DNA of 64,000 nucleotides from Flavobacteriales bacterium (GTDB lineage Bacteria > Bacteroidota > Bacteroidia > Flavobacteriales_F > PHOS-HE28): positions 18,011-82,010 of the forward strand of contig JABWBQ010000003.1 of NCBI GenBank assembly GCA_013360395.1, in the 5' to 3' direction. The position numbers and the translations under genes are program-made. Below are positions 32,672 through 39,883 of this stretch, piece after piece; the stretch's first letter is position 1, and each line of letters begins with the position of its first letter. The notes under the pieces are model-generated. The model searched no databases and had not been told where the DNA came from. It saw only the letters and a program-made list of their open reading frames with translations.

Positions 32672-32761
32672 ATGCACTCCATCCAGCAAGTCCTCTCCGA
32701 TGCATCGCTCACCGGCACCACCCTCACCGTGGCCGGCTGGGTGCGCACCCTGTGCTACTAA
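32672..32761 (+). pseudogene. orphan 5' fragment of an asparaginyl-tRNA synthetase gene (29 codons then TAA)
   Basis: Translates to MHSIQQVLSDASLTGTTLTVAGWVRTLCY*, compared with the intact AsnS N-terminus MDLTSIKSVLDETPTNTTVTVAGWVRTFRN at 38429. It shares an exact 21-nt block, GTGGCCGGCTGGGTGCGCACC (32729-32749 = 38489-38509). Confidence 0.6.
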
Positions 32762-32811
32762 AGTGGAATTGCACGGCCGCTGCTTCCTTGGCACTTTCGT
32801 AGTTCGGAAAC

Positions 32812-35211
32812 ATGCCCATGCAGCGTAGTCGGCATCTCATCCGCCAGCCCACTGTTGCGCTGTTGGCTGCATTGATCTGCACGCTTGCATGGGCCAGCGG
32901 CTGCTCGCATGAGGCGGGACCCGGAGGGCTCGAATGGAGCCCGACGGCCGATAGCCTGCTGAACGATACGACCACCCGTTCGGTGTTGCTCGATTCCCTG
33001 CGCCAGCGCTTCCGTGACGCCGACGCGGACACGGCGGCGCTGGACGCCGCGATCGAATACGGTGCCGAGTTGCGCACATCGCCCGGCGATCGACTGGTCG
33101 CTGAAGTGCGCGACCACAGCCGGGTCTTGACCTATCCATGGGGCGAGGCCGAAGCCGAGTACCGCGCAGCCCGCAGCGCCATCCGGCACCATCGCCTCGC
33201 AACGGCGGACAGTCTGCTCCGCCTCACCGAAGAGCTCGCTGCCGGCCGGCAGGGACGCCGATGGGACGTTATGCGGATCAAGACGGTCTTCTCCCGGGCC
33301 GACCTGCAGCGCTTCGCCCGCCAAGCCGATTCCGCGATGCTCGGCTTCCGCAAAGCACTCGCCATGGCCACGCGTGTCGAGGATGCCTTCTGGATGGCAT
33401 CCGGGGAAGCAGCCCTGGGTGCGTCGTTCCTCATGGACATGAAGTTCGATTCGGCCCGCGTGCATTGCGAGCGATGCGTGGCCATGGCCCAGCAGGCACG
33501 CGACCTGGACCGTGAGACCTCGTGCCACAACTTTCTCGGTGAGATGTACCGCCTACAGGAACGATATGACGATGCCTTGTTCCACCAGCAACGCGCTTTG
33601 GAGCTCACCGTACGCACGGGCGACCGGAGCCGTGAGGCGGAGATCCAATACTCCCTTGCAGGCATCCATCAACAGAAGGATGATCTTGCCCGGGCGCTGG
33701 ACTGTTACCAGCGCGCGATCCACCTGGGCCGCATCATGGGAATGCCGCAAGTGGTCGCGCTCAGCGAAATGTACACCGGCGACATCCACCATGGATTCGC
33801 GGAGTACGATACCGCGTTGACGCGCTACCGCTCAGCACGCAGCTCCGCCCGTGCTTCCAGCATGGCGTACGCGGAAGGCCTCTGCCTCATCCACTCGGCA
33901 CGCACGCTTGTCGAGTTGGGCCGGGCGAATGAAGGGTTGACGGATGCGCGCGCGGCGTTCGCCATCGGTGATTCGATGGACAACGATGAACTGCGGCGCA
34001 ATGCACACAATTGCATCGGCGAGATGCTCGTCGCGGTGGACAGGATCGAGGAGGCCGTGATCCATTTCGACAGCGCCTTGTCCATCGGCGAACGCACCGG
34101 CACGGCGGACGAGCGCTTCTACGCGCAGCAGATGGGCGGTATCGCCAGGCTTCAGGGGCGGCACACCGATGCGCAACGGCACGGGGAGGAAGCGCTGCGC
34201 CTGTGCCGCATGAACGATGCGGGACCATTGGAGTTCGCACAAGCCGCCGAACTGCTCTACCGCAGTTACAAGGAGCTGGGCGATGGCAACAAGGCCGCTG
34301 CCATGCTCGAACTGAAGGTGGCCATGCTGGACAGCGTGTACAACGCCCGGCAGCTGCGCAAGGTGAGCAGCCTTGAGCTGAAGGCCCAGAGCGAACGCCT
34401 GCTGGCCGAGCGCGAACGCGAGCGAGCGCGGCAGGATCTCACCATCGCCGAAGAGCGCAACCGCCGTGTCATGGTCACCATCATCGGCGCCGGAGTGCTG
34501 CTGCTGGCCATCGCTTTGTGGTCGCGTTTGCGCTATGTGCGCCGCACGCGCGACACCATCCTGCGCACGCAGCAGCACCTGCTGGAGAGCGAGAAACGCC
34601 GGGAGGCCTCCGAGGTGCGCACGCGCATCGCCCGCGACGTGCATGATGAACTGGGCAGCGAGATCACGCGCATCACCCTGCTCGTGGGAGAGAGCCGCCG
34701 GGCGCAGACCGACGAGAGCGGCAAGGCGCGCATGGAGGAGATCGCGACGCTCACACGCGAGGTGGGCTCATCGCTCAGCGACATCGTTTGGGCCGTGGAC
34801 CCCCGGTTCGATAGCGCCTCGGCCCTGGTGGCCCACGCCGGGCACTTCGCCGAACGCATGCTCGCCAATATCGCACTGAAGAGCGAGCGCCGGTTCCAGC
34901 ACACGGGCGCGGACCGCGTGATCGATCCCGCCACCAAACGCAACCTCTTCCTGGTGCTGAAGGAAGCTTTGAACAACGCGCTCAAGTACGCCCGTGCCAA
35001 GCAACTGACCGTGGTGCTGGAAACCGATGAACACGGCTACCGTATGCTGGTAGAGGACGATGGCATCGGCTTCGAACCTCCGCAGGTGCGGGCCGGTGGC
35101 AATGGCCTGGCGAACATGCAGGTGCGCAGCGCGCAGCTCGGCGCGGAACTGCGCATCACCGCTTCGCCCGGCCAGGGTTGCACGGTGGAACTGCACGGAT
35201 CGTGGAAATGA
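32812..35211 (+). CDS. TPR-repeat sensor histidine kinase, HK3
   Basis: Lipoprotein-like N-terminus (ALICTLAWASGCS), TPR-like ectodomain, TM helix (VTIIGAGVLLLAIALW), RIARDVHDELGSEITRI, LKEALNNALKYARA...DDGIGF...GNGLANMQVRSAQLGA. Confidence 0.9.
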   Translation: MPMQRSRHLIRQPTVALLAALICTLAWASGCSHEAGPGGLEWSPTADSLLNDTTTRSVLLDSLRQRFRDADADTAALDAAIEYGAELRTSPGDRLVAEVRDHSRVLTYPWGEAEAEYRAARSAIRHHRLATADSLLRLTEELAAGRQGRRWDVMRIKTVFSRADLQRFARQADSAMLGFRKALAMATRVEDAFWMASGEAALGASFLMDMKFDSARVHCERCVAMAQQARDLDRETSCHNFLGEMYRLQERYDDALFHQQRALELTVRTGDRSREAEIQYSLAGIHQQKDDLARALDCYQRAIHLGRIMGMPQVVALSEMYTGDIHHGFAEYDTALTRYRSARSSARASSMAYAEGLCLIHSARTLVELGRANEGLTDARAAFAIGDSMDNDELRRNAHNCIGEMLVAVDRIEEAVIHFDSALSIGERTGTADERFYAQQMGGIARLQGRHTDAQRHGEEALRLCRMNDAGPLEFAQAAELLYRSYKELGDGNKAAAMLELKVAMLDSVYNARQLRKVSSLELKAQSERLLAERERERARQDLTIAEERNRRVMVTIIGAGVLLLAIALWSRLRYVRRTRDTILRTQQHLLESEKRREASEVRTRIARDVHDELGSEITRITLLVGESRRAQTDESGKARMEEIATLTREVGSSLSDIVWAVDPRFDSASALVAHAGHFAERMLANIALKSERRFQHTGADRVIDPATKRNLFLVLKEALNNALKYARAKQLTVVLETDEHGYRMLVEDDGIGFEPPQVRAGGNGLANMQVRSAQLGAELRITASPGQGCTVELHGSWK

Positions 35212-38350: not shown

Positions 38351-38428
38351 TCCAATACAGCCGCCTATCCCCATCTTTGCACGCCCTCCCCGCACCGGAA
38401 CATCCGCAGGCGAGGGGTACAAGGCCCT

Positions 38429-39883
38429 ATGGATCTCACTTCGATCAAATCCGTCCTCGACGAAACCCCCACCAACACCACCGTCACTGTGGCCGGCTGG
38501 GTGCGCACCTTCCGCAACGACCGCTTCATCGCCCTCAACGACGGCAGCACCATCCACAACCTGCAGTGCGTGATCGACCAGCAGCAGGTGGACGCCGCCA
38601 CGCGTGCCCGCTTCACCACCAGCGCCTCGGTGCGCTGCACCGGCACCATCGTGGAAAGCCAGGGCAGCGGCCAGCGCGTGGAGATGCAGGTGAAGGAAGT
38701 GGAGGTGCTCGGCGACAGCGACCCGAACGCCTATCCCATCCAGCCGAAGAAGCACAGCCTGGAGTTCCTCCGCGAGAACGCCCACCTGCGCTTCCGCACC
38801 AACACCTACAGCGCCATCTTCCGCATCCGCCACCAGGTGAGCTTCGGCATCCACGAGTATTTCAGCGGCCAGGGCTACAACTACTTCCACAGCCCCATCA
38901 TCACTGCCAGCGATGCGGAGGGCGCGGGCGAGATGTTCCGCGTGAGCACCCTCGACCCCAAGAACCCGCCGCTGAACGACGACGGCAGCGTGAACTGGAA
39001 GGAGGATTTCTTCGGCGCCGAGAGCCGCCTCACCGTGAGCGGCCAGTTGCAGGCCGAGCTCGCGGCCCTCGCGCTGGGCAAGGTGTACACCTTCGGGCCC
39101 ACCTTCCGCGCGGAGAACAGCAACACCGCGCGCCACCTGGCCGAGTTCTGGATGATCGAGCCCGAGGCCGCCTTCCTGGACCTGCACGGCAACATGGACC
39201 TGGCCGAGGGCCTGTGCAAGCACCTCATCGCCCGTGTGCTGCAGCACAGCGCCGACGACCTGGAGTTCCTGGACAAGCGCATGGCCGAGGAGGAGAAGCA
39301 GAAGCCGCAGCAGCAGCGCAGCGAAATGGGCCTGATCGAACGCCTGAAGTTCGTGCTGGAACATCCCTTCGAGCGGATCACCTACACGGACGCGATCGAC
39401 ATCCTGCTGCGCAGCAAGCCCTACCAGAAAAAGCAGTTCCAGTATCCGGTGGAATGGGGCGTGGACCTGCAGAGCGAGCACGAGCGCTACCTGGTGGAAA
39501 AGCACTTCAAGAAGCCGGTGATCGTCACGGGCTACCCCGCGCAGGTGAAGGCCTTCTACATGCGCATGAACGGCCCCGGTGACTTCGGCTACACGGACAA
39601 GGGCGCCACCGTGGCCGCCATGGACGTGCTGTTCCCTGGTATCGGCGAGATCATCGGCGGCAGCCAGCGCGAGGAGCGCCTCGATGTGCTGGAGGCGCGC
39701 ATGGATGCCATGGGCGTGCCCAAGGACCAGATGTGGTGGTTCCTGGATACGCGCCGCTTCGGCACCGTGCCCCACGCGGGCTTCGGCCTGGGCCTGGAAC
39801 GCTTCGTGCTCTTCGTCACCGGCATGGGCAACATCCGCGACGTGATCCCCTTCCCCAGGACCCCGAAGAGCGCGGAGTTCTGA
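38429..39883 (+). CDS. asnS: asparagine--tRNA ligase
   Basis: Full-length class IIb pattern: VAGWVRTFRNDRFIALNDGS (OB fold), FHSPIITASDAEGAGEMF, FGPTFRAENSNTARHLAEFWMIEPE (motif 2), GFGLGLERFVLFVTGMGNIRDVIPFPRT (motif 3). Confidence 0.95.
   Translation: MDLTSIKSVLDETPTNTTVTVAGWVRTFRNDRFIALNDGSTIHNLQCVIDQQQVDAATRARFTTSASVRCTGTIVESQGSGQRVEMQVKEVEVLGDSDPNAYPIQPKKHSLEFLRENAHLRFRTNTYSAIFRIRHQVSFGIHEYFSGQGYNYFHSPIITASDAEGAGEMFRVSTLDPKNPPLNDDGSVNWKEDFFGAESRLTVSGQLQAELAALALGKVYTFGPTFRAENSNTARHLAEFWMIEPEAAFLDLHGNMDLAEGLCKHLIARVLQHSADDLEFLDKRMAEEEKQKPQQQRSEMGLIERLKFVLEHPFERITYTDAIDILLRSKPYQKKQFQYPVEWGVDLQSEHERYLVEKHFKKPVIVTGYPAQVKAFYMRMNGPGDFGYTDKGATVAAMDVLFPGIGEIIGGSQREERLDVLEARMDAMGVPKDQMWWFLDTRRFGTVPHAGFGLGLERFVLFVTGMGNIRDVIPFPRTPKSAEF
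39798..39883 (+). repeat. asnS 3' terminal segment, copy 1 of 3 (functional copy)
   Basis: The core cttcgtcaccggcatgggcaacatccgcgacgtgatccccttccccaggacc (39811-39862) recurs in diverged form at 41165-41208 and 42969-43020. Confidence 0.7.

What the first reader, a model, noticed from the sequence alone, without database searches (positions are those of the whole stretch)
32672..38509. Orphan asnS 5' fragment and a 21-bp exact direct repeat bracket a 5.7-kb kinase-regulator-fibre cassette
Seen in sequence:
- A 29-codon ORF at 32672-32761 (MHSIQQVLSDASLTGTTLTVAGWVRTLCY*) is a diverged copy of the AsnS N-terminus (MDLTSIKSVLDETPTNTTVTVAGWVRTFRN, 38429).
- Both contain the identical 21-mer GTGGCCGGCTGGGTGCGCACC (32729-32749 and 38489-38509).
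- Homology stops right after the 21-mer in the fragment.
- Between the two copies lie exactly HK3, RR2 and F4, and these genes lack the TAACCCG palindromes of the neighbouring block.

Inference: this is the footprint of site-specific integration into the 5' end of asnS by an element that carries a replacement promoter and 5' coding end (attL and attR around the 21-mer). The sensor/regulator/fibre trio would therefore be a mobile cassette. No integrase is present, so mobilisation would be in trans or the element is fixed.
Basis: partly seen in the sequence, partly recalled or inferred. Interest (0 to 1): 0.72.

Follow-up and report, generated by a model that had tools for sequence, protein, structure and literature searches.

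The report
Recombination scar at the asnS start
A 5.76-kb block from a related bacterium, carrying a sensor kinase, a regulator, a fibre gene and a substitute start for the essential gene asnS, was spliced into the first 81 bases of asnS and left the old start behind as a stub; this is a real but ordinary recombination scar, not a demonstrated mobile element.

Summary
The stub at 32672-32761 is a true asnS 5' relic. The 21-mer occurs exactly twice in the window, and HK3, RR2 and F4 lie between the copies.

Comparison with relatives fixes the polarity.
- The closest relative (L071) and mag.6-like genomes (L041, L063) carry an uninterrupted "fibre 3' end, terminator, asnS promoter, short-type asnS". 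This matches window 32353-32749 (90%) joined directly to 38458-39885 (95%).
- The present asnS is therefore a chimera: 60 imported "long-type" bases followed by a native body.

The att reading is not supported.
- The 21-mer is identical in asnS of 17 of 22 related species, so its identity is simple conservation.
- The insert has no recombinase and no room for one.
- In another lineage (L060) the same trio sits directly upstream of a long-type asnS as ordinary chromosome, with no stub.
- All 24 contigs of this species that were read carry the insertion.

Most likely a chromosomal segment from a related lineage was captured by recombination anchored on the conserved asnS 5' block. The route was either a single crossover with a circular fragment or a one-ended invasion followed by end joining.

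A second scar of the same kind lies at the asnS 3' end, around a one-gene defence candidate. Interest is modest.

The parts
32353..32463 (+). 3' end of fibre gene F3 (S74 chaperone C-terminus). Native DNA, left edge of homology to the closest relative.
   Evidence: Window 32353-32749 aligns to L071 9682-10078 at 90.4%. Pfam Peptidase_S74.
32501..32527 (+). Terminator-like GC-rich hairpin followed by a T-run, after F3.
   Evidence: 11-bp stem with 10 GC pairs. The same hairpin is present in L071 upstream of its intact asnS.
32579..32671 (+). Native (short-type) asnS promoter and leader, with CCTTTGCGGCCC at 32583-32594, TCTGATC repeats, and TAATTTTC at 32648-32655.
   Evidence: 90% identical to L041/L063. 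182/208 nt identical to L071 from the F3 stop to the ATG. Motifs read; promoter function is inferred.
32672..32761 (+). Orphan ORF: native asnS codons 1-26 plus 3 codons and a stop read from the inserted DNA.
   Evidence: 74/78 nt identical to L041 and 69/78 to L071.
32729..32749 (+). Left copy of the 21-mer. Its last 10 bases, GGTGCGCACC (32740-32749), are a perfect palindrome that ends at the junction.
32750..38509 (+). Inserted segment, 5760 bp. Its position can be slid by up to 21 nt because of the repeat.
   Evidence: Absent between the two homologous flanks in L071, L041/L063, L001 and L015. Length.
32755..32772 (+). Operator-like motif CTACTA-N7-ATTGC upstream of HK3, at the very left edge of the insert.
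   Evidence: Conserved upstream of the HK3 homologues in L057, L058, L059 and L060. Binding by RR2 is inferred.
32818..35211 (+). HK3: TPR-containing HisKA_3 / HATPase_c sensor histidine kinase.
   Evidence: Pfam. Gene call. Nearest non-self homologues are 70-71% aa identical.
35208..35879 (+). RR2: response regulator with receiver and GerE/LuxR HTH domains (NarL class).
   Evidence: Pfam. 82-84% aa identical to the regulators of L057 and L060.
35889..35909 (+). Second copy of the operator-like motif (CTACTACTTTTAGAGCATTGC), upstream of F4.
   Evidence: Conserved upstream of the fibre genes of L057 and L060.
35963..38350 (+). F4: phage-tail-fibre-like protein with a C-terminal Peptidase_S74 intramolecular chaperone domain.
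   Evidence: Pfam. PHROG tail spike, tail fibre and virion structural families. No relative on viral contigs.
38351..38428 (+). Imported long-type asnS promoter region, containing CCATCTTTGC.
   Evidence: Not homologous to the L071 upstream region (39 matches in 88 aligned columns). Contiguous homology from F4 into asnS in L060 (window 36742-39114 aligns to L060 8863-11225). Motif shared with L042 and L060.
38429..38488 (+). Imported long-type asnS codons 1-20 (MDLTSIKSVLDETPTNTTVT).
   Evidence: The first ~100 nt of asnS (38429-38525), which include these codons, are 65-69% identical to L041/L015 and at best 81-83% to long-type alleles. The dense run of differences from native-like genomes ends at 38488.
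38489..38509 (+). Right copy of the 21-mer. The switch from imported to native sequence falls at or just after it; the right-hand limit cannot be set (the nearest site differing from mag.6-like genomes, 38536, is shared with L071).
38429..39883 (+). Functional chimeric asnS (484 aa): imported start plus native body.
   Evidence: Pfam tRNA_anti-codon and tRNA-synt_2. Sliding identity. Tree.

Best explanation
This is a homology-anchored capture of chromosomal DNA from a related lineage.

The recent ancestor of this species had the arrangement "fibre gene, terminator, asnS promoter, short-type asnS", as its closest relative still has. Some other lineages of the same clade of uncultured high-GC Flavobacteriales carry a self-contained sensor kinase / NarL-type regulator / fibre module directly upstream of a "long-type" asnS.

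A segment from such a donor recombined with the resident asnS at the DNA block that is nearly invariant in the clade (about asnS nt 45-125). The segment ran from the operator in front of the kinase to about nt 81 of the donor's asnS.

Two routes give the observed product:
- a circularised donor fragment integrated by one crossover (Campbell type);
- a break at nt 81/82 of the resident gene, at the end of the palindrome GGTGCGCACC, was repaired by copying leftwards from the donor and then joining ends.

The product keeps asnS functional with the donor's promoter and first 20 codons. It strands the resident promoter plus 26 codons as a stub. Because no terminator-like site was found between the stub and HK3, the stranded promoter probably now reads into HK3-RR2.

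Shown: the insertion, its polarity, its boundaries, the chimeric asnS, and the chromosomal nature of the donor arrangement. Inferred: the recombination route, the donor, and read-through from the old promoter.
For: - Empty site in the closest relative. Window 32353-32749 aligns to L071 9682-10078 (90.4%), 38458-39885 to L071 10027-11454 (95.4%), and 41236-43018 to L071 11503-13294 (96.4%). L041/L063, L015 and L001 show the same pattern.
- Chimera. The asnS body is 93-99% identical to mag.6-like genomes, while the first ~100 nt (38429-38525) are only 65-69% identical. The dense differences end at 38488 and the density is uniform afterwards.
- Polarity. The asnS-body tree puts the window next to L063 in a clade of seven; the other six all have the short type. 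The window protein is the only long-type among the 15 listed members of its 90% cluster.
- Donor arrangement is ordinary chromosome. L060 has efflux genes, TetR, DsbA, HK3-like (70% aa), RR2-like (82%), F4-like (54-67%) and long-type asnS. Homology is unbroken from 36742 to 39114, there is no stub, and its left flank is syntenic with window 11057-14400.
- The long-type start is a widespread allele, and short and long types are interleaved on the body tree. This implies repeated exchange with a breakpoint at the conserved block.
- No recombinase in the insert, and none among the larger ORFs scanned elsewhere in the window; five of those ORFs matched no family.
- A second duplication of the same design lies at the asnS 3' end around an unrelated one-gene insert. 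This argues for a general recombination route rather than an element-specific integrase.
- Single crossover with a circular molecule is documented to duplicate the homologous segment (PMC3240628). Homology-anchored insertion that leaves orphans has been proposed for T6SS and Rhs loci (PMC5361080).
Against: - The identity available for a RecA-type crossover is very short: 21 exact nt, or 40 nt with 4 mismatches.
- Both junctions coincide at one short palindromic sequence, and the insert is compact with a clean left end at an operator. An integrase would produce exactly this picture.
- The donor has not been found; the nearest HK3 homologues are only 70% identical.
- Classic homology-facilitated illegitimate recombination usually deletes recipient DNA rather than leaving a duplication.
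- The microhomology at the left junction (TGCGC, seen in L057) is only a hint taken from a distant relative.
Confidence: 0.68

Rival explanations
1. Site-specific integration. The trio is an integrase-less mobile cassette whose attP contains a surrogate asnS promoter and 5' end. A recombinase acting in trans exchanged strands within the 21-mer, producing attL (32729-32749) and attR (38489-38509).
For: - Direct repeats exactly at both junctions.
- Empty sites in relatives.
- The target gene is kept functional by element-borne sequence.
- A 10-bp perfect palindrome lies at the junction.
- The trio is found behind three different left neighbours (the asnS stub, DsbA, a TPR-cyclase), with homology always starting at the same motif.
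Against: - No recombinase in the insert and no room for one; none among the larger ORFs scanned elsewhere in the window.
- The identity of the 'core' is explained by conservation, since 17 of 22 relatives carry it.
- In L060 the trio abuts asnS with no attL-like stub.
- The 'surrogate' 5' end is a common chromosomal allele in genomes without the trio.
- No recurrent insertion at this site was seen in about 30 loci.
- The insertion is fixed in all 24 contigs read.
Confidence: 0.12
2. Reverse polarity. The genome natively had trio plus long-type asnS (as L060 does). A short mag.6-like piece (F3 3' end, promoter, 81 nt of asnS) was then inserted upstream of HK3, and the asnS body was separately converted to the mag.6-like sequence.
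For: - L060 shares both flanks with the window: efflux/TetR on the left and asnS on the right.
- Fibre/HK loci upstream of asnS are common in the clade.
Against: - It needs two coordinated events.
- L071 is collinear with the window across stub, asnS body and downstream AraC block at 90-96%.
- The stub and the body show similar divergence from mag.6-like genomes (74/78 nt against 95%).
- The clade that contains the window is otherwise uniformly short-type.
Confidence: 0.05
3. In-situ tandem duplication of a fibre plus asnS-5' segment, followed by divergence of the two copies.
For: Both copies are preceded by an S74 fibre gene (F3 and F4).
Against: - The two 5' ends differ by about 32% outside the 21-mer, and their upstream regions are unrelated.
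- Yet the non-functional copy is still 95% identical to a functional orthologue in L041.
- The two 5' ends belong to two allele types that are both present in other species.
Confidence: 0.02
4. Assembly chimera of two co-occurring strains joined at the conserved block.
For: Some short-read contigs break inside asnS, one of them about 90 nt into the gene.
Against: The identical stub-to-HK3 junction sequence (32561-32830) is present in all six loci fetched by exact match to the window's AsnS, F4 and HK3 proteins, which include three independent Logan contigs besides the window's own assembly. The same gene order was reported for the 24 contigs read for F4 and for F3 and the 23 read for HK3.
Confidence: 0.01

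Closest known systems
Prophage-like elements e14 and phage 21 integrated in the E. coli icd gene (from my own knowledge; not tested here)
   Same: The insertion lies inside the end of a housekeeping gene. The incoming DNA supplies a diverged substitute gene end, so the gene stays functional, and the displaced original end remains as an orphan fragment. The two copies share a short identical stretch.
   Different: Those elements insert at the 3' end, carry their own integrase and excise. Here the 5' end and promoter are replaced, no recombinase is present, and the substitute end is an ordinary allele found in other chromosomes.
Single-crossover (Campbell-type) integration of circular DNA, and homology-facilitated illegitimate recombination (PMC3240628; de Vries & Wackernagel 2002 and Prudhomme et al. 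2002, as cited in PMC5361080)
   Same: A one-sided homologous anchor lets non-homologous cargo enter. Single crossover with a circle leaves a duplication of the homologous segment on both sides of the insert, which is the architecture seen here.
   Different: The anchor here is far shorter (21-40 nt of near identity) than the 109-950 bp duplications reported. The event is inferred from comparative genomics and was not observed.
Sequential displacement of T6SS effector-immunity modules, and Rhs/CDI orphan arrays (PMC5361080)
   Same: A conserved gene next to a hypervariable locus serves as the anchor. An incoming module displaces the resident end, which survives as an orphan. Ordinary double-crossover replacement, which leaves no scar, probably occurs more often. 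The interleaving of short and long asnS starts on the tree fits this picture.
   Different: The anchor is a housekeeping aminoacyl-tRNA synthetase gene. The cargo is a sensor/regulator/fibre module, not a toxin-immunity pair, and only one orphan is present.
NarL/LuxR-class two-component systems (HisKA_3 kinase plus receiver-GerE regulator)
   Same: Domain architecture of HK3 and RR2. Palindromic or repeated operator-like motifs lie upstream of the genes of the module.
   Different: The kinase has a long TPR sensor region. The presumed target is a phage-tail-fibre-like gene. Neither the signal nor the binding site has been tested.
Phage tail fibre / endosialidase proteins with a Peptidase_S74 intramolecular chaperone domain
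   Same: F3 and F4 match Pfam PF13884 and PHROG tail-spike and tail-fibre families.
   Different: They are encoded in a cellular locus with no other phage genes, next to T9SS-tagged DUF5122 propeller proteins. No relatives were found on viral contigs.

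Membership tests
Integrase-mediated integrative element (prophage / ICE / IME / genomic island) | Direct repeats (attL and attR) at the two ends of the insert | tested here: met
   An exact 21-mer lies at both junctions. The repeat is equally well explained by conservation of asnS, since 17 of 22 relatives have the same 21-mer.
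Integrase-mediated integrative element (prophage / ICE / IME / genomic island) | A tyrosine or serine recombinase (or DDE transposase) encoded in the element, usually next to an att site | tested here: not met
   Pfam on HK3, RR2 and F4 finds only kinase, regulator and fibre domains. Spacers are 68, 0 and 83 nt. None of the larger ORFs scanned elsewhere in the window matched a recombinase or transposase family, though five matched nothing. The rest of the genome could not be searched.
Integrase-mediated integrative element (prophage / ICE / IME / genomic island) | Uninterrupted target site in related genomes | tested here: met
   L071, L041/L063, L015 and L001 have an intact short-type asnS collinear with both flanks.
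Integrase-mediated integrative element (prophage / ICE / IME / genomic island) | The same element with the same ends recurs at the same site in other genomes, or is polymorphic within the species | tested here: not met
   No second asnS stub in about 30 related loci. In L060 the homologous trio abuts asnS with no stub. All 24 contigs read for the exact F3 and F4 proteins show the same gene order, and the junction sequence is identical in the six loci checked.
Integrase-mediated integrative element (prophage / ICE / IME / genomic island) | Excision products (a circular attP junction and a restored attB) | not testable with these tools
   This needs raw reads, for example from SRR10609165, SRR30862808 and SRR31738699.
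Homology-anchored recombination scar (single crossover / one-ended capture) | The insert is flanked by a duplication of the segment homologous between donor and recipient | tested here: met
   The asnS 5' region is present on both sides, with 41/60 nt plus 21/21 nt identical between the copies.
Homology-anchored recombination scar (single crossover / one-ended capture) | The target gene is a donor/recipient chimera that switches at the repeat | tested here: met
   The dense differences from native-like genomes stop at 38488 and their density is uniform afterwards.
Homology-anchored recombination scar (single crossover / one-ended capture) | The cargo is contiguous with the anchor gene as ordinary chromosome in another lineage | tested here: met
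   In L060, HK, RR, fibre and long-type asnS are contiguous, and homology with the window runs unbroken from 36742 to 39114.
Homology-anchored recombination scar (single crossover / one-ended capture) | Microhomology at the illegitimate junction (for the one-ended variant) | tested here: inconclusive
   L057 has GATGCGCGA|TGTGCTAC where the window has GGTGCGCACCC|TGTGCTAC. L057 is only about 73% related to the insert, and the true donor is unknown.
NarL/LuxR-class two-component system | HisKA_3 + HATPase_c kinase adjacent to a receiver + GerE HTH regulator | tested here: met
   Pfam hits above the gathering score for HATPase_c, HisKA_3, Response_reg and GerE.
Peptidase_S74 (intramolecular chaperone) fibre proteins | C-terminal S74 chaperone domain after a fibre or spike region | tested here: met
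   PF13884 at F4 residues 747-803 of the long ORF, E = 2.8e-15. PHROG tail spike and tail fibre families. Autoproteolytic release was not tested.

The most novel reading that the evidence does not exclude
The kinase / regulator / fibre trio could be a self-contained, integrase-less cassette that moves between genomes. In this reading it targets the invariant palindromic block at the start of asnS through a recombinase supplied in trans, and it carries its own asnS promoter and N-terminus as a decoy. The stranded housekeeping promoter plus 29-codon stub would then be co-opted as promoter and leader for the sensor operon. The matching scar at the 3' end of asnS, around a one-gene defence candidate, would make asnS a two-ended docking site for small cargo modules in this clade.
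Probability: 0.1. Interest if true: 0.6.

Novelty: new member of a known kind. Interest (0 to 1): 0.3.

Why it matters
The locus is a clean natural example of how a hypervariable surface-fibre locus is exchanged between related uncultured Flavobacteriales. A nearly invariant stretch of an essential neighbouring gene serves as the recombination anchor, and an imperfect exchange left a datable scar, which ordinary replacement would not.

It also shows that a short exact repeat beside an insertion can be simple gene conservation and need not be an att core.

Biologically, the fibre genes of this clade come in plug-in modules. Each module has its own sensor kinase, regulator and private operator motif, which is a testable hypothesis about how surface fibres are regulated. 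None of this overturns current understanding.

Tried and rejected
- I looked for the donor, or a closer copy of the trio. The HK3 protein search gave only homologues of 71% identity or less. Exact-protein look-ups of F4, HK3 and F3 returned only this species with the same arrangement. F4 had no relative on viral contigs.
- I looked for other insertions at the same site. The metagenome scan for the short-type asnS start returned only intact genes plus unrelated chance hits. A peptide search for second asnS N-termini across all 60 loci held at that point found two copies only in this species.
- I tested whether the imported tract extends beyond the 21-mer, which would favour a long homologous anchor. 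It does not. A candidate site at 38536 is shared with L071, and the density of window-specific differences is flat after 38509.
- I considered a reciprocal-crossover patch, suggested by P0139 (the L071 protein) having TNTTVT like the current gene. I rejected it because at the DNA level the stub equals L041 over that segment, and N/G/H at this position varies freely in the clade.
- Base composition does not mark the insert: its GC is 0.61-0.67, similar to the 0.59-0.68 of the flanking DNA.
- The sigma-70 promoter scan found nothing, as expected for Bacteroidota. My promoter statements rest on TTTG-type motifs that I recognised by eye.
- I did not predict structures or run the large representative search, because the question is about recombination and not protein function.

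Full report
**1. The observation**

The stub ORF at 32672-32761, the two exact copies of GTGGCCGGCTGGGTGCGCACC (32729-32749 and 38489-38509) and the abrupt loss of similarity after the left copy are all present.
- The 21-mer occurs nowhere else in the window, even with 3 mismatches, and none of 100 shuffles gave two matches.
- The genes between the copies are:
  - a TPR + HisKA_3 + HATPase_c histidine kinase (32818-35211);
  - a receiver + GerE regulator (35208-35879);
  - a fibre protein with a C-terminal Peptidase_S74 chaperone domain (35963-38350).
- asnS itself (38429-39883) has the expected OB-fold and class II synthetase domains.

**2. Source of the window and its relatives**

- The exact AsnS protein is encoded on GCA_026648255.1, contig JAPKGA010000002.1 (441 kb).
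- A scan of species-representative genomes returned 50 asnS loci. About 24 of them come from closely related, uncultured high-GC Flavobacteriales (82-96% amino-acid identity).

**3. What the 21-mer means**

- The identical 21-mer is present once in the asnS of 17 of 22 of these relatives and is never duplicated.
- Aligned by eye, the invariant DNA block is much wider than 21 nt. It runs roughly CTCACC-GGCACCACC-NTCACC-GTGGCCGGCTGGGTGCGCACC-TTCCGCAACGACCGCTTCATCGCCCT.
- The left end of the "repeat" is just the first synonymous difference between two alleles. The right end is where the stub is cut off.
- Exact identity over 21 nt is therefore what any two asnS 5' ends of this clade would show. 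It carries no information about an att core.

**4. Two allele types of the asnS start**

Upstream of the conserved block, relatives fall into two types.
- The short type has 19 codons before the block (MHSI(K/Q)QVL...). It is preceded by TCTGATC repeats and a TAATTTTC box.
- The long type has 21-22 codons before the block in the relatives (M(E/D/Q)xT.IKSVL...). It is preceded by a (C/T)CTTTGC box about 45 nt upstream.
- The stub is short-type. The current gene start is long-type, with 20 codons before the block.

**5. Which start is native**

- Along the gene, the window's asnS body (38526-39883) is 93-99% identical to the mag.6-like loci L041 and L015.
- The first ~100 nt (38429-38525) are only 65-69% identical to them, and at best 81-83% identical to long-type alleles.
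- The dense run of differences from native-like genomes ends at 38488. After 38509 the density of window-specific differences is flat, at 1-4 per 120 nt.
- The stub is 74/78 nt identical to L041.
- A neighbour-joining tree of the gene body (no support values) puts the window next to L063 inside a clade of seven; the other six are all short-type. Elsewhere on the tree the two types are interleaved.
- Within the 90% protein cluster, the window's protein is the only long-type among the 15 listed members.

The stub is therefore the native start, and the present start is imported.

**6. The empty site**

The closest relative found carries protein P0139 (gene body 98.5% amino-acid identical) on locus L071. 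It has an uninterrupted [quoted passage not shown].

| Window | L071 | Identity |
|---|---|---|
| 32353-32749 | 9682-10078 | 90.4% |
| 38458-39885 | 10027-11454 | 95.4% |
| 41236-43018 | 11503-13294 | 96.4% |

- The same two-piece match, always ending at 32749, is seen with L041, L063, L015 and L001.
- The window is therefore an L071-like backbone plus a 5760-bp insertion.
- It is not an assembly artefact:
  - the 270-nt junction sequence (32561-32830) is identical in all six loci fetched by exact protein match, three of them independent Logan contigs;
  - all 24 contigs read for the exact F4 and F3 proteins, and the 23 read for HK3, show the same gene order.
- By the same token, no empty-site allele was seen within the species.

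**7. Where the insert came from**

- HK3's nearest non-self homologues are about 70% identical.
- One of them lies on L060, which carries RND efflux genes, TetR, DsbA, the HK homologue, an RR (82% amino-acid identity), a fibre (54-67%) and a long-type asnS (MDITTIKSVL...).
  - Nucleotide homology to the window runs without a break from 36742 to 39114, that is, across the fibre-asnS spacer.
  - There is no asnS stub upstream; the DsbA stop codon is 9 nt from the HK upstream motif.
  - L060's left flank is syntenic with window 11057-14400.
- In L057-L059 the same HK-RR-fibre trio follows a TPR-cyclase.
- Other relatives (L016, L042, L006, L013) have different HK-RR-fibre sets upstream of long-type asnS.
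- "Trio plus long-type asnS" is therefore an ordinary chromosomal neighbourhood in other lineages.
- The long-type start is a common allele, not an element-borne decoy.
- Because asnS appears once in every related locus examined, the imported start implies a donor genome and not an internal move.

**8. The left junction**

- The insert starts 1-3 nt before a motif conserved upstream of every HK3 homologue. The window has GCTACTAAAGTGGAATTGCACGG, L057 has GCTACTATCGTGGTATTGCACGG and L060 has TCTACTTTGGTGGTATTGCAGGG.
- A related motif lies upstream of the fibre genes, CCTACTACT(T/A)T..GAGCATTG(C/A).
- The trio thus looks like a self-contained regulon with a private operator. The neighbouring block uses ATAACCCG-N2-CGGGTTAT instead. 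Binding of RR2 to the motif is inferred, not shown.
- The resident sequence ends with the perfect 10-bp palindrome GGTGCGCACC.
- In L057 the bases before the motif read GATGCGCGA, so TGCGC is a possible microhomology. This is only a hint.

**9. Mechanism**

Three routes give exactly this product:
- (a) one crossover between the chromosome and a circular molecule carrying the donor segment, by homologous recombination;
- (b) a break at nt 81/82 of the resident asnS whose right end invaded the donor's asnS, copied leftwards through the donor's start, fibre, regulator and kinase, and was then joined to the left end;
- (c) integrase-mediated exchange in the 21-mer.

Evidence bearing on these:
- Experimental work shows that single crossover with a circle duplicates the homologous segment (109-950 bp), and that it outnumbered true homology-facilitated illegitimate recombination during E. 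coli conjugation (PMC3240628).
- Homology-anchored insertion that leaves orphans has been proposed for T6SS effector-immunity arrays and Rhs loci (PMC5361080).
- Against (c):
  - no recombinase in the insert, and none among the larger ORFs scanned elsewhere in the window, five of which matched no family;
  - no stub in L060;
  - no recurrence at this site;
  - no polymorphism within the species;
  - the chromosomal nature of the "surrogate" end.
- In favour of (c):
  - the very short identity available to RecA;
  - the exact coincidence of both junctions at a palindrome;
  - the compactness of the insert.

I put (a) plus (b) at about 0.68 and (c) at about 0.12.

**10. Consequences (inferred)**

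- A strong hairpin terminator at 32501-32527 follows F3.
- The native promoter region and the 29-codon stub are intact, and no terminator-like site was found between the stub and HK3. The old housekeeping promoter probably reads into HK3-RR2.
- asnS is now expressed from the imported promoter.

**11. A second scar**

At the other end of asnS, 41165-41202 is a 38-nt orphan copy (92%) of 39811-39848. Between the two copies lies one gene, an AAA_14 + DUF4143 ATPase (39964-41121).
- This gene matches the PADLOC defence candidate PDC-S01 at E = 2.9e-102.
- In L063 a degraded copy of the same gene is flanked by direct repeats of about 75 nt of the asnS 3' end, running to the stop codon. The orphan copy there is followed by the sequence that follows asnS in L001, which lacks the gene. 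L071 lacks it too.
- Two unrelated cargos with the same gene-end duplication at opposite ends of one gene favour a general recombination route over a dedicated integrase. They also make asnS a local hot spot worth a survey.

**12. Verdict**

- It is wrong, or at least unsupported, about att sites and a mobile element.
- The kind of event is known (gene-end duplication by homology-anchored insertion). This instance is new but unsurprising, and interest is about 0.3.

Noticed in passing
window 39886-41235 (ATPase gene 39964-41121; orphan asnS 3' fragment 41165-41202): A second gene-end duplication at the 3' end of asnS. A 1.35-kb insert carries a single AAA_14 + DUF4143 ATPase that matches PADLOC defence candidate PDC-S01 (E = 2.9e-102). 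It is followed by a 38-nt orphan copy (92%) of asnS 39811-39848. In L063 a degraded copy is flanked by ~75-nt asnS 3' repeats. L071 and L001 lack it.
   Followed up: partly
window 39923-39945: An AT-rich 9-bp inverted repeat, AATATGGAA-N5-TTCCATATT, lies just upstream of the ATPase gene in an otherwise 64% GC region. It is conserved in L063 and could be a promoter or operator.
   Followed up: no
window 18949-18966, 23054-23071, 26143-26162, 28428-28445: Palindromes of the form ATAACCCG-N2-CGGGTTAT (two perfect, two imperfect) lie in the spacers upstream of a fibre gene, a T9SS-tagged DUF5122 gene, kinase HKa, and the divergent HKb/propeller pair. They look like operators for the neighbouring LuxR-type regulator (23069-23734).
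   Followed up: partly
window 32755-32772 and 35889-35909; L057 and L060: A different shared motif, CTACTA-N7-10-ATTGC, lies upstream of both HK3 and F4 and is conserved in two other lineages. Each kinase-regulator-fibre module appears to have a private operator.
   Followed up: partly
window 15113-26109 (minus strand) compared with L057 1-7425, L016 and L042: The block HKa, RRx, DUF5122 protein, collagen-like fibre, fibre and TPR-adenylate/guanylate cyclase is on the minus strand here. Its homologues are on the same strand as, and directly upstream of, the HK3-like trio in L057 or asnS in L016 and L042. This implies an inversion or reshuffling of the fibre island in this lineage.
   Followed up: no
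window 32353-32463, and F3/F4 C-termini: Homology to the closest relative's upstream fibre gene covers only the last ~110 nt of F3, the S74 chaperone C-terminus. The conserved 3' ends of fibre genes may act as a second recombination anchor for swapping fibre bodies.
   Followed up: no
window 41236-45125 compared with L063 and L001: The block AraC regulator, Anthrone_oxy protein, cytochrome c and beta-lactamase-family/T9SS protein downstream of asnS is shared in part with L071 (96% over 41236-43018) and L042 (95.6% over 42964-44014). It is absent from mag.6-like genomes and L001, which is another synteny break next to asnS.
   Followed up: no
L054/L076 (Logan SRR30862808_14577) and L053/L075: Several short-read contigs of this species end inside asnS, one only 90 nt into the gene, just after the clade-wide conserved block. 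This is probably assembly-graph branching with co-occurring relatives and not biological variation.
   Followed up: no
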